A stretch of 64,000 bases of DNA from sequence record PZ452578.1; one strand, given 5' to 3'. The stretch is from a phage. The notes beneath the pieces are model-generated. The model ran no database searches and had not been told where the DNA came from. It worked only from the letters and a program-made list of their open reading frames with translations. Within the stretch, counting starts at the first letter, position 1, and every line of letters begins with the position of its first letter. Shown here piece by piece: positions 43,503-44,864 of this stretch. The position numbers and the translations under genes were made by a program.

Positions 43503-43635
43503 AGTTTTGTGAAAAAATTTTTAAAAAGTTTTAGGGAATTCTAGGGTCAGGAGGGGCAATTAAAAGGTAGGATAATATATTATAAAGGGTATAAACTAAA
43601 TGATGCCTAGAGAGGCCCGAAAAGGCCTAGATACC

Positions 43636-43666
43636 AAAAAGCCCCAACCTTTCGGTCGGGGCTAAG
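43636..43666 (-). terminator. intrinsic terminator, 31-bp repeat copy 1
   Basis: Minus-strand transcript GCCCCGAC-CGAAAG-GUUGGGGC plus U5; identical 31-bp sequence at 44191-44221. A second hairpin (AGGCC...GGCCU) follows at 43613-43629. Confidence 0.6.
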
Positions 43667-43670
43667 AATG

Positions 43671-44144
43671 TTATTTGATTTGTTTAGCAGACCAAATGCG
43701 GTCTTTAATAATTTTTTGGATGTCTTCAACATACTCAAGAGAGTGAGCATGTGGGTTATCTTTGAAACTATAAGCACGAGCTAGCTTTTGGCCTTCAGTT
43801 TTGATTACTAAAAGCTCTTTAAGGATAGCTTCATATTTAGAGATAATTCCTTTAACAATATTTTTTTCTTGTGCAGCTTTAGGATCTGCTTTAGGAGCAG
43901 GTTTACCTGAAGCCTTTGCAAAAGCAGCTCCAGTAGCAACTAAACTTTTCCAGGCCATACTAACCGCATTTCCTGTAAATCCTTCTGCTTTCATGTCGCG
44001 AGCAAATTGGAATCGTGATTCATCGGAAGCATCTTTATAGGAATATTTACCCGCGGCAATGGCTGCTTTTGCGACAGCTTGAATTTCGGTGCTAGATGCT
44101 TCATTTAACACCGCTTCATTTAAAAATTGAGCATATGATTTCAT
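43671..44144 (-). CDS. hypothetical Ala/Lys-rich protein with CTS-like N-terminus (candidate head cargo protein)
   Basis: 157 aa; N-terminus MKSYAQFLNE resembles the CTS (L-x-E cleavage context); a late promoter box lies upstream. Confidence 0.55.
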   Translation of the reverse strand: MKSYAQFLNEAVLNEASSTEIQAVAKAAIAAGKYSYKDASDESRFQFARDMKAEGFTGNAVSMAWKSLVATGAAFAKASGKPAPKADPKAAQEKNIVKGIISKYEAILKELLVIKTEGQKLARAYSFKDNPHAHSLEYVEDIQKIIKDRIWSAKQIK

Positions 44145-44180: not shown

Positions 44181-44188
44181 TATTTATA
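44181..44188 (-). promoter_or_regulatory. late promoter (TATAAATA box)
   Basis: Minus strand TATAAATA about 35 nt upstream of the ATG at 44144. Confidence 0.5.
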
Positions 44189-44190
44189 CT

Positions 44191-44221
44191 AAAAAGCCCC
44201 AACCTTTCGGTCGGGGCTAAG
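44191..44221 (-). terminator. intrinsic terminator, 31-bp repeat copy 2 (end of the tRNA operon)
   Basis: Identical to 43636-43666; hairpin plus U-tract on the minus-strand transcript. Confidence 0.6.
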
Positions 44222-44269
44222 CCTTGCGGCAACCTTGTCGGGGTTCCACCTGCTAAGGCAAGTGTTTGT

Positions 44270-44361
44270 ACGAAACGCCGGGATTCGAACCCGGTTATTA
44301 AGCAGTTGACGCTACTCAATATTTTTAAAAGGCCATATCTCGACCATATCCGAACGTTCCG
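44270..44361 (-). ncRNA. tRNA-like small RNA (canonical acceptor and T-arm, non-canonical anticodon region)
   Basis: Minus strand: 7-bp acceptor stem CGGAACG/CGUUUCG and T-arm CCGGG-UUCGAAU-CCCGG, but no regular anticodon stem-loop; about 92 nt. Confidence 0.35.
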
Positions 44362-44534
44362 TCAAAAACGCTACTCGGCTTACGGCAAAGATATTTCCTC
44401 GAATCGATAATTCGGTGCGCCGTTTCTGCTGTGATATAAGTGGACATTAACAAAACATAAAGATTTATTAATGCCAGTCCTTAAACAGGGAACATCAGTC
44501 CGACGACTTACCGGTAGCGACCCGGCTTCTTGTT

Positions 44535-44610
44535 TGGTCGAGGCAGTAGGAATCGAACCTACGACCTAGGACTTAGAAGGTCCTTGCTCTTCCTTCTGAG
44601 CTATGCCTCG
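44535..44610 (-). tRNA. tRNA-Arg (anticodon UCU)
   Basis: Hand-folded cloverleaf: acceptor CGAGGCA/UGCCUCG, anticodon loop CUUCUAA, T-loop UUCGAUU, encoded CCA. Confidence 0.8.
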
Positions 44611-44614
44611 GATT

Positions 44615-44689
44615 TGGCGGACGTGATAGGATTCGAACCTATAACCAATCGCTTAACAGGCGATCGCTCTGCCATTGAGCTACACATCC
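44615..44689 (-). tRNA. tRNA-Asn (anticodon GUU)
   Basis: Hand-folded: acceptor GGAUGUG/CACGUCC (one G-U), anticodon loop CUGUUAA, T-loop UUCGAAU, encoded CCA. Confidence 0.75.
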
Positions 44690-44693
44690 AAAT

Positions 44694-44780
44694 TGGTGGG
44701 GAGTGATGGAGTCGAACCACCCGAGTCGCAATGACAATGGATTTACAGTCCACACCGCTACCTCTACGGGATAACTCCCC
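44694..44780 (-). tRNA. tRNA-Tyr (anticodon GUA), type II with long variable arm
   Basis: Hand-folded: acceptor GGGGAGU/ACUCCCC, anticodon loop CUGUAAA, long variable arm, T-loop UUCGACU, encoded CCA. Confidence 0.75.
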
Positions 44781-44789
44781 TAATTAATT

Positions 44790-44864
44790 TGGTGGCCCTG
44801 GGTGGAATTGAACCACCATCTGGCGATTATGAGTCGCTTGCTTGAACCTTCCAGCTACAGGGCC
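44790..44864 (-). tRNA. tRNA with CAU anticodon (Ile2/lysidine-type or Met)
   Basis: Hand-folded: acceptor GGCCCUG/CAGGGCC, anticodon loop CUCAUAA, T-loop UUCAAUU, encoded CCA. Confidence 0.7.

What the first reader, a model, noticed from the sequence alone, without database searches (positions are those of the whole stretch)
44270..44534. tRNA-like element and structured spacer at the 3' end of the tRNA operon
Region 44270-44361 has a perfect 7-bp acceptor stem and canonical T-arm (GGUUCGAAUCC) but no regular anticodon arm, suggesting a tRNA-derived or tRNA-like stable RNA processed by the same machinery. The adjacent 170 nt (44362-44534) contain further hairpins, for example CGAAU-UAUCG-AUUCG. 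T4 is known to encode stable small RNAs of unknown function in its tRNA region.
Basis: partly seen in the sequence, partly recalled or inferred. Interest (0 to 1): 0.45.

Follow-up and report, generated by a model that had tools for sequence, protein, structure and literature searches.

The report
Known T4 small RNAs rnaC, rnaD
The interval holds the two small stable RNAs (rnaD and rnaC, "species 2 and 1") that T4-type phages make together with their tRNAs; they have been known for 50 years without a known function, and the one new point here is that two loops of the tRNA-like rnaC appear to pair with each other.

Summary
The window is a T4-like phage (Tequatrovirus). Its tRNA operon runs on the minus strand. 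The flagged interval is two annotated T-even genes: rnaD (44533-44413) and rnaC (44407-44269), followed by a terminator (44218-44195).

Comparison of 33 distinct homologues from nine or more phage genera shows that stem is the wrong pairing. The 3' strand pairs with the true 5' end of rnaC (44406-44400), which fits the annotated 139-nt RNA. The "170-nt spacer" is rnaD plus the first third of rnaC, and the example hairpin is not conserved.

rnaC is a tRNA-like RNA, not a tRNA. It has an acceptor stem stacked on a T arm, plus two extra arms; 32 of 50 proposed pairs show compensatory changes.

I found no report of this: the two apical hexaloops (UUGACG and CGUCAA) are complementary in 33/33 sequences and changed together twice independently, which indicates a loop-loop kiss.

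The function remains unknown. The entity is already known, so interest is modest.

The parts
44535..44610 (-). tRNA-Arg(UCU), the last tRNA of the ten-gene operon (Gln, Leu, Gly, Pro, Ser, Thr, Met, Tyr, Asn, Arg; 45362-44535)
   Evidence: ARAGORN; Rfam tRNA 70.4 bits
44413..44533 (-). rnaD (species 2 RNA), 121 nt. It has a 5' hairpin, then a long irregular hairpin with an invariant core and a replaceable distal part. The 3' end reads ACCG here and ACCA in T4.
   Evidence: Coordinates transferred from the RB27 annotation. nhmmer E=8.6e-37. In the alignment and consensus fold, 5 of 23 pairs show compensatory change and 96.4% of cells are paired, against 29-51% when the partner is slid.
44510..44526 (-). 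rnaD hairpin H1: (G/A)CCGG - GUCGCUA - CCGG(U/C)
   Evidence: The closing pair covaries A-U/G-C; the loop is invariant in 11 of 11 sequences
44408..44412 (-). 5-nt spacer AAUUA between rnaD and rnaC. With U44407 it gives A at -2 and U at -1 before the acceptor stem.
   Evidence: Every homologue sits about 6 nt after a CCA-type 3' end.
44269..44407 (-). rnaC (species 1 RNA), 139 nt as annotated; the mature ends are uncertain by a few nt
   Evidence: RB27 and T4 annotation. 98.7-100% identical to annotated rnaC genes. Covariance model 166.6 bits.
44400..44406 (-). P1 5' strand (CGAUUCG) of the acceptor-like stem
   Evidence: Pairs with 44277-44271. There are two covarying pairs. The tandem U.U becomes U-A/C-G in Tegunavirus.
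44330..44399 (-). P2, a long irregular hairpin (about 22 bp in five segments) that starts directly after P1; about 70 nt in every clade
   Evidence: 17 of the 22 pairs in helices 2-5 covary. The sequence is fully replaced in some clades while the length is kept.
44360..44365 (-). P2 apical hexaloop UUGACG, the proposed partner in the loop-loop kiss
   Evidence: Complementary to 44311-44306 in 33/33 sequences, with two independent double changes
44322..44329 (-). J2/3, an A-rich single-stranded linker (UUUAAAAA)
   Evidence: The AAAAU core is nearly invariant
44296..44321 (-). P3, a 10-bp hairpin one nucleotide before the T arm (the position of a long variable arm)
   Evidence: 9 of 10 pairs covary
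44306..44311 (-). P3 apical hexaloop CGUCAA, the proposed partner in the loop-loop kiss
44278..44294 (-). P4, the T arm: CCGGG-UUCGAAU-CCCGG
   Evidence: Two of five pairs covary and 100% of cells are paired. The loop is non-canonical (UGCAUGC) in the three Entb_45-type Kanagawavirus sequences.
44271..44277 (-). P1 3' strand (CGUUUCG), following the T stem with no gap, as in tRNA
44266..44270 (-). 3' tail U-ACA-A. U sits at the discriminator position. Positions 75-76 are an invariant CA. Position 74 is A here, U in Tegunavirus and C (a true CCA) in the F48/Marfa-type clade.
44219..44265 (-). 3' trailer with small hairpins, presumably removed during processing
   Evidence: Fold z-score -4.27 including the terminator; kept in a Dhakavirus sequence that lacks rnaC
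44195..44218 (-). Intrinsic terminator of the tRNA/rnaD/rnaC transcript
   Evidence: 10-bp stem followed by a U run. PMC2330249 states that transcription terminates after the species I gene.

Best explanation
The interval contains rnaD (species 2) and rnaC (species 1), the two stable small RNAs of T-even phages. They are transcribed as the tail of the tRNA operon on the minus strand, upstream of the terminator at 44218-44195.

rnaC is a tRNA mimic, not a tRNA. Its real 5' end (44406-44400) pairs with 44277-44271 to form a 7-bp acceptor-like stem. That stem stacks directly on a canonical T arm. In place of the D and anticodon arms there is a 70-nt irregular hairpin (P2), an A-rich linker, and a 10-bp hairpin (P3) in the variable-arm position. 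The apical hexaloops of P2 and P3 pair with each other in a 6-bp kiss. This pairing is either within one molecule or between two copies.

Inferred steps follow. The acceptor/T-arm unit lets the host tRNA machinery cut the RNA out of the precursor: RNase P between U44407 and C44406, and exonucleases at the 3' side. The compact fold then makes it stable.

Function is my inference, at about 0.3 probability. The RNA may work in trans as a non-decoding tRNA look-alike that occupies a tRNA-recognising protein, such as a host processing enzyme or a tRNA-targeting defence nuclease.

rnaD is an independent, non-tRNA-like structured RNA with an invariant core. The stated confidence refers to identity, boundaries and secondary structure, not to function.
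For: Identity: the interval is 98.6% identical to RB27, where rnaD and rnaC are annotated at the matching positions, and it also matches T4 rnaC.

Operon context: ten tRNAs lie upstream on the same strand and a terminator lies downstream. PMC2330249 describes one primary transcript that is the precursor of the tRNAs and of species I and II.

Expression: T4 RNAC was detected by Northern blot and classed as a late RNA (PMC9697503).

Structure: on 33 distinct homologues, 94.6% of cells are paired against 36-45% when the partner is slid. 32 of 50 pairs show compensatory change. RNAalifold independently returns the same fold.

Acceptor stem: there are covarying pairs, and the helix is perfect in phiR1-RT.

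Loop-loop kiss: 198 of 198 cells are Watson-Crick. The pairs changed C-G to U-A in Tegunavirus and A-U to G-C in the Klebsiella F48/Marfa-type clade. That clade was found with a search pattern that did not specify the loops. None of the 12 loop columns shows a one-sided change, while the adjacent stems vary freely.

tRNA-gene-like behaviour: in Karam-, Moon-, Kanagawa-, Teguna- and Gelderlandvirus, rnaC sits inside tRNA arrays. It lies about 6 nt after an upstream CCA and a few nt before the next tRNA.

Leader: U at -1 in most sequences (A in the rest) and A at -2 in 30 of 33 sequences.
Against: RNase P and RNase III processing of species 1 come from my recollection of the 1970s-80s literature, which I could not retrieve.

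The annotated 5' end (U44407) is one nt upstream of the predicted RNase P site. The annotated 3' end (A44269) does not explain why CA-A beyond it is invariant.

The acceptor stem carries a conserved tandem U.U mismatch in 30 of 33 sequences.

The T loop is non-canonical in one lineage.

The kiss rests on only two covariation events.

No functional data exist. Published papers from 2010, 2022 and 2025 all call the function unknown (PMC3014915, PMC9697503, PMC12685909). Natural phages lack rnaC (Dhakavirus, Yersinia phage P8), so it is dispensable in at least some settings.
Confidence: 0.88

Rival explanations
1. One reading: a 92-nt tRNA-like RNA (44361-44270) with CGGAACG/CGUUUCG as its acceptor stem, followed upstream by a 170-nt structured spacer.
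For: The stem exists in this sequence and in T4. The weak Rfam tRNA-Sec match uses it (16.6 bits). ARAGORN calls a 96-nt 'tRNA-Phe' of this type in L008. The GenBank record of phage PG7 annotates a 95-nt 'tRNA-Met' there. 83% of cells still pair across the family, so it could be an ancestral remnant or a minor alternative conformer.
Against: None of its 8 pairs shows compensatory change, 3 pairs depart only by mismatches, and the G.U pair forms in only 6 of 17 sequences. The same nucleotides belong to the apical P2 stem, where all 5 pairs covary. It is 13.3 kcal/mol worse than the other fold. It does not fit the annotated RNA length of 139 nt. The 'spacer' is the separately conserved rnaD.
Confidence: 0.04
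2. rnaC and rnaD have no trans function. They are cis-acting processing and stability modules: entry sites for RNase P or RNase III and a 3' cap that protects the tRNA precursor. The stable RNAs are by-products.
For: In T-even phages they lie at the 3' end of the operon just before the terminator. They are dispensable in nature. No phenotype is reported in the accessible literature (PMC3014915).
Against: In other genera rnaC lies in the middle of tRNA arrays, not at the end. rnaC is at least 97% identical in about 690 of 766 phage records, while the neighbouring rnaD ranges from 75 to 99%. The hexaloops, the A-rich linker, and the constant lengths of P2 and P3 are conserved although the stem sequences are replaced. 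That is more constraint than a cleavage handle needs.
Confidence: 0.25
3. rnaC is a base-pairing regulator or a self-assembling RNA. The two complementary hexaloops pair between molecules (dimers or rings, as in phi29 pRNA) or with external targets, rather than within one molecule.
For: The loops are perfectly complementary and covary, which does not distinguish pairing within a molecule from pairing between molecules. In KaAlpha the complementarity extends to 15 contiguous nt, and the MFE fold switches to that long-range helix.
Against: The lengths of P2 and P3 are conserved so that P2a-d (about 21-23 stacked layers) matches P2e + kiss + P3 (21 bp). This fits a folded-back intramolecular arrangement (my inference). 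No target is identified, and a 6-nt seed is too short to search for one.
Confidence: 0.15
4. The interval encodes small proteins, as many automated GenBank annotations suggest ('hypothetical protein' over rnaC/rnaD).
For: ORFs of 42-81 aa with TTG or GTG starts overlap it. Hypothetical proteins are annotated here in many records.
Against: Substitutions occur as compensatory base pairs. 1-nt indels occur inside the linker among close relatives such as N2 and L073, and these would shift any reading frame. Curated T4 and RB27 annotation is ncRNA.
Confidence: 0.01

Closest known systems
Bacteriophage T4 rnaC (species 1 RNA) and rnaD (species 2 RNA)
   Same: The genes are the same. rnaC is 98.7% identical to the T4 copy and rnaD 86%. 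Order and position after tRNA-Arg are the same, and so is the position before the terminator.
   Different: The window carries the T2/RB3-type tRNA set (Met, Tyr, Asn instead of Ile plus segB). Its rnaD ends ACCG rather than ACCA. An extra 157-aa ORF cassette follows the terminator.
Canonical tRNA (class II, with a long variable arm)
   Same: A 7-bp acceptor stem is contiguous with a 5-bp T stem and a UUCGAAU loop. A hairpin lies one nt before the T arm. The gene sits in tRNA arrays with tRNA-like spacing. The F48/Marfa-type clade encodes a CCA end.
   Different: There is no D arm and no 7-nt anticodon loop. A 70-nt hairpin follows the acceptor strand directly. The acceptor stem has a tandem U.U mismatch. 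Most members end in ACA. tRNA models do not match.
Other tRNA mimics: the tmRNA tRNA-like domain, bacterial and phage YrlA Y-RNAs, plant-virus 3' tRNA-like structures, gammaherpesvirus tRNA-miRNA hybrids
   Same: In each, an acceptor/T-arm module is borrowed so that tRNA enzymes recognise a non-decoding RNA (from general knowledge).
   Different: No sequence or model match was found. rnaC's ends form the acceptor stem itself, unlike YrlA. It has no mRNA-like or pseudoknot domain, unlike tmRNA.
   Same: Two apical loops with complete Watson-Crick complementarity; hexaloops in which all six bases can pair, as in TAR-TAR* (from general knowledge).
   Different: Here both loops lie on one tRNA-like RNA. 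Whether they pair within or between molecules is untested. No link to packaging or replication is known.

Membership tests
T4 rnaC (species 1 RNA) | Sequence homology to the annotated T4/RB27/RB3 rnaC gene over its full length | tested here: met
   100% identical to RB27 and RB3 rnaC and 98.7% to T4; covariance model 166.6 bits over 148 of 148 positions
T4 rnaC (species 1 RNA) | Location downstream of the phage tRNA genes on the same strand, ahead of the operon terminator | tested here: met
   PMC2330249
T4 rnaC (species 1 RNA) | Accumulates as a discrete stable RNA of about 140 nt in infected cells | not testable with these tools
   Shown for T4 by Northern blot (PMC9697503); not testable for this phage
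T4 rnaD (species 2 RNA) | Sequence homology to annotated rnaD, located between tRNA-Arg and rnaC | tested here: met
   Collinear with RB27 rnaD; nhmmer E=8.6e-37; 86% identical to T4
Canonical tRNA | Cloverleaf with a D arm and an anticodon arm bearing a 7-nt loop; detected by tRNA models | tested here: not met
   No ARAGORN call. No Rfam tRNA match even at E<=10; only tRNA-Sec at 16.6 bits against a threshold of 47. The covariation-supported fold has neither arm.
Canonical tRNA | 7-bp acceptor stem contiguous with a 5-bp T stem and a T loop UUCRANY | tested here: met
   exceptions are the tandem U.U in the stem and a variant T loop in one lineage
Canonical tRNA | 3'-terminal NCCA, encoded or added, and aminoacylation | tested here: inconclusive
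   The encoded tail is U-ACA-A. It is U-CCA-A only in the F48/Marfa-type clade. Addition of CCA and charging are not testable here.
tmRNA / permuted tmRNA | tRNA-like domain plus a tag reading frame and pseudoknots; detected by ARAGORN or Rfam | tested here: not met
   No ARAGORN tmRNA. Only 10-11-bit T-arm fragments against a threshold of 47.
Kissing-loop RNAs (phi29 pRNA-like self-pairing loops) | Two loops with conserved, covarying Watson-Crick complementarity | tested here: met
   6 pairs, 198 of 198 cells paired, two independent double changes
Kissing-loop RNAs (phi29 pRNA-like self-pairing loops) | Physical loop-loop complex (monomer fold-back or multimer) demonstrated | not testable with these tools
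   Needs chemical probing, native gels and compensatory mutants

The most novel reading that the evidence does not exclude
rnaC is a compact tRNA mimic locked by a conserved 6-bp kiss between the apical loops of its two non-tRNA arms; I found no report of this kiss. This shape, rather than any decoding capacity, would let it act as a decoy or sponge for a tRNA-recognising host factor, for example a tRNA-cleaving defence nuclease. That would give the 50-year-old 'species 1 RNA' a function. The structural half (a real kiss) I put at about 0.6; the full reading, including the decoy function, at about 0.15.
Probability: 0.15. Interest if true: 0.6.

Novelty: already known. Interest (0 to 1): 0.27.

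Why it matters
As a finding it matters little: the scan rediscovered two annotated T4 genes.

It has some practical value. The region is often mis-annotated, as hypothetical proteins or as a 95-96-nt tRNA-Met or tRNA-Phe. The covariation-supported structure gives correct boundaries and a model that finds the family in at least nine genera of enterobacterial T4-like phages.

It has some scientific value. The function of rnaC and rnaD is a long-standing gap in T4 biology. The conserved, covarying loop-loop pairing and the constant arm lengths give precise, cheap mutants for testing structure and function. This comes at a time when phage tRNAs are being recognised as counter-defence tools (PMC13096335).

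Tried and rejected
1. Ordinary or intron-containing tRNA. ARAGORN and Rfam are negative in the window.

2. Rejected by covariation and by energy.

3. The hairpin CGAAU-UAUCG-AUUCG. Not conserved.

4. Known Rfam families, including tmRNA. Nothing near threshold.

5. Wider homologues. A loose pattern, CGAGGA...GCCT...AAAAT, gave only chance hits in viral contigs; the model found nothing new in about 200 such loci. Weak model hits in related loci were ordinary tRNA-Gln genes.

6. Promoter reading of TTGACG. No sigma-70-like site here.

7. Coding potential. Rejected.

8. Old primary literature on species 1 (Paddock & Abelson; Mazzara et al.; McClain et al.). Not held in the library. Searches for 'species 1 RNA' and 'p2Sp1' were empty or irrelevant.

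9. An obligate rnaD-rnaC partnership. Rejected, because each occurs without the other in natural phages.

10. I did not use the protein, structure-prediction or genome contigs tools, since nothing here is protein-coding.

Full report
**What the window is.** The 351 bases around the finding match 806 phage records. The best matches are Shigella phage ESh25 (99.4%), Yersinia phage PYPS2T, RB14 and RB27 (98.6-98.9%). T4 itself is 94% identical. The window is therefore a Tequatrovirus, a T4-like phage. Ten tRNA genes lie head to tail on the minus strand from 45362 to 44535: Gln, Leu, Gly, Pro, Ser, Thr, Met, Tyr, Asn, Arg. The finding must be read on the minus strand, downstream of tRNA-Arg.

**Identity.** Two ncRNA genes are annotated at the matching positions in RB27 (NC_025448). 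They are rnaD ('species II RNA') and rnaC. T4 (KJ477684) annotates rnaC as 'small, stable RNA; species 1 RNA'. Transferring the coordinates places rnaD at window 44533-44413 (121 nt) and rnaC at 44407-44269 (139 nt), with a 5-nt spacer between them. The rows are collinear without gaps, and the covariance-model hits confirm the mapping. An intrinsic terminator follows at 44218-44195. PMC2330249 states that transcription runs through the whole tRNA cluster and terminates after the species I gene. It also says that the primary transcript is the precursor of the tRNAs and of species I and II RNAs. PMC9697503 detected T4 RNAC by Northern blot and classed RNAC and RNAD as late RNAs of unknown function. 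PMC3014915 (2010) and PMC12685909 (2025) also say the roles are unknown.

**Checking the observation.** The T arm CCGGG-UUCGAAU-CCCGG (44294-44278) is real. CGUUUCG (44277-44271) follows it without a gap, as in a tRNA. That stem exists in the sequence as six Watson-Crick pairs and one G.U. ARAGORN and Rfam see no tRNA.

**Which stem is real.** I collected homologues from the phage collection, from IMG/VR and from metagenomes. The genera are Tequatro-, Mosig-, Gapriver-, Karam-, Kanagawa-, Moon-, Teguna-, Gelderland- and Marfavirus. The set also includes a Klebsiella F48/Marfa-type clade first seen in metagenomic contigs.

Its G.U pair forms only in the Tequatrovirus-type sequences, 6 of the 17.
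- The alternative 5' strand is CGAUUCG (44406-44400), at the annotated 5' end of rnaC. It has two covarying pairs. Its two internal U.U mismatches become U-A and C-G in Tegunavirus, giving a perfect CAGUCCG/CGGACUG helix in phiR1-RT.

RNAalifold returns the same architecture without guidance. The same trap has caught software and annotators. ARAGORN calls a 96-nt 'tRNA-Phe' over the 3' two-thirds of rnaC in L008. The PG7 GenBank record has a 95-nt 'tRNA-Met' there.

**Structure of rnaC.** On 33 distinct sequences, 94.6% of cells are paired, against 36-45% when the 3' partner is slid. 32 of 50 pairs show changes on both sides. The parts are:

- **P1**, the acceptor-like stem of 7 bp.
- **P2**, a 70-nt irregular hairpin that starts directly after P1. 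Its sequence is wholly replaced in several clades, but its length is constant.
- **J2/3**, an A-rich linker of about 8-12 nt.
- **P3**, a 10-bp hairpin one nucleotide before the T arm, where a long variable arm would sit.
- **P4**, the T arm.

The 3' tail is U-ACA-A. The U (discriminator position) and the CA at positions 75-76 are invariant. Position 74 is A, or U in Tegunavirus, or C in the F48/Marfa-type clade, which therefore encodes a true CCA. The leader has U at -1 in most sequences (A in the rest) and A at -2 in 30 of 33 sequences. From general knowledge this is the leader that E. coli RNase P prefers. It predicts cleavage between U44407 and C44406, one nucleotide inside the annotated 5' end. 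I leave the ends uncertain by a few nucleotides.

**A loop-loop pairing.** The P2 apical hexaloop is UUGACG (44365-44360). The P3 apical hexaloop is CGUCAA (44311-44306). They are perfectly complementary. Across the 33 sequences all 198 cells are Watson-Crick pairs.

- The loops changed together twice, at different pairs and in different clades. In Tegunavirus they are UUGAUG/CAUCAA. In the F48/Marfa-type clade they are UUGGCG/CGCCAA.
- The F48/Marfa-type clade was retrieved with a pattern that did not specify either loop.
- None of the 12 loop columns shows a one-sided change.
- The stems that carry the loops exist in at least five and six sequence versions respectively. In UFV01 even the usually constant closing pairs of P3 are replaced.
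- In KaAlpha the complementarity extends to 15 contiguous nucleotides.

By rough reckoning, two given hexaloops match by chance with probability about 2e-4. Each matched double change has a chance of about 1 in 18. This is inference, not a formal test. I read it as a kissing-loop contact.

Whether the contact is within one molecule or between two cannot be decided here. The basal four segments of P2 make about 21-23 stacked layers. The apical P2 stem, the kiss and P3 together make 21 bp. A fold-back at the asymmetric GUAG/U internal loop would therefore close the circle, and this would explain the constant arm lengths. That geometry is my inference.

**rnaD.** rnaD has an invariant 5' core of about 40 nt. 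This includes the hairpin CCGG-GUCGCUA-CCGG, and there is also an invariant 3' segment. The distal hairpin exists in at least three unrelated versions that fold alike. Five of 23 pairs covary. It is not tRNA-like apart from an ACCA end in T4 and in Providencia phage PSTCR6; here the end reads ACCG.

Across Tequatrovirus-like records rnaD ranges from 75 to 99% identity, whereas rnaC is at least 97% identical in about 690 of 766 records. The two genes are separable. rnaD occurs without rnaC in Dhakavirus, Yersinia phage P8 and Providencia phage PSTCR6. rnaC occurs without a nearby rnaD in the Karam-, Kanagawa-, Moon- and Tegunavirus loci searched, where it sits inside tRNA arrays like one more tRNA gene.

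**How it most likely works.**

- Shown here: the identity, the operon context, the secondary structure and the covarying loop pairing.
- Taken from literature: co-transcription with the tRNAs and accumulation as a stable RNA in T4.
- Recalled but not verified here: RNase P makes the 5' end of species 1 from a species 2-species 1 precursor, and RNase III cuts the long hairpin in vitro.
- Inferred: the acceptor/T-arm unit is the handle by which host tRNA enzymes excise rnaC, and the compact fold explains its stability.
- On function I commit, at about 0.3, to a trans-acting tRNA look-alike that occupies a tRNA-recognising protein. A pure processing or by-product role is about 0.25. A base-pairing or self-assembling role is about 0.15.

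The constraint on loops, linker and arm lengths, and the mid-array position in other genera, argue against a mere 3'-end handle. Natural loss of rnaC shows that it is not essential.

**Verdict.** The object is already known. Interest is modest. It rises somewhat because the structure and the loop-loop contact give concrete experiments for an old open question.

Noticed in passing
window 43631-43666 and 44186-44221 (minus-strand terminators 43663-43640 and 44218-44195); ORF 43671-44144 (-): The operon terminator is duplicated: 36 nt, 97% identical, 555 bp apart. The two copies bracket a 157-aa ORF that RB27 has (RB27_136) and T4 lacks. It looks like an ORF cassette inserted by recombination between terminator copies.
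   Followed up: partly
L258 224-318 (phage PG7); L008 7816-7911; hit H257 (KKP_3262); many records: rnaC is widely mis-annotated. It appears as a 95-nt 'tRNA-Met' (PG7), as a 'tRNA-Phe' (KKP_3262; also ARAGORN on L008), or as one to three 'hypothetical proteins'.
   Followed up: partly
L101 (Dhakavirus CLBP2), L230 (VR5), L229 (Yersinia phage P8), L107 (Providencia phage PSTCR6): These phages keep rnaD but lack rnaC. In CLBP2 the loss is a clean deletion that joins ...GCGCACCGAA directly to CACUUGCC of the trailer. In PSTCR6 rnaD is followed by tRNA-Ile.
   Followed up: partly
window 44376-44368 and 44317-44309 (minus strand): A 9-nt direct repeat, GAGUAGCGU, occurs in the 5' strand of P2 and in the 5' strand plus loop of P3. 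This hints that one arm arose by partial duplication of the other, or that alternative pairings of the P3 3' strand are possible.
   Followed up: no
L003, L022, L089 (Entb_45-type Kanagawavirus sequences), T-loop columns 128-134 of alignment A6: The T loop is UGCAUGC instead of UUCGAAU while the rest of rnaC is kept. The canonical T-loop fold is therefore not indispensable in that lineage.
   Followed up: no
window 44615-44864 (tRNA-Asn, tRNA-Tyr, tRNA-Met): The window has the T2/RB1/RB3-type tRNA set in place of T4's tRNA-Ile plus segB. Its tRNA-Asn is the reported preferred SegB cleavage site (PMC2330249). Phage tRNA-Tyr is the reported counter to Septu (PMC13096335).
   Followed up: no
alignment A3 columns 58-106 (window about 44485-44440): The distal hairpin of rnaD exists in at least three unrelated sequence versions among very close phages, while the flanking core of about 40 nt is invariant. 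PMC12685909 reports a convergent adaptive SNP inside rnaD in an evolved T4-like phage.
   Followed up: partly
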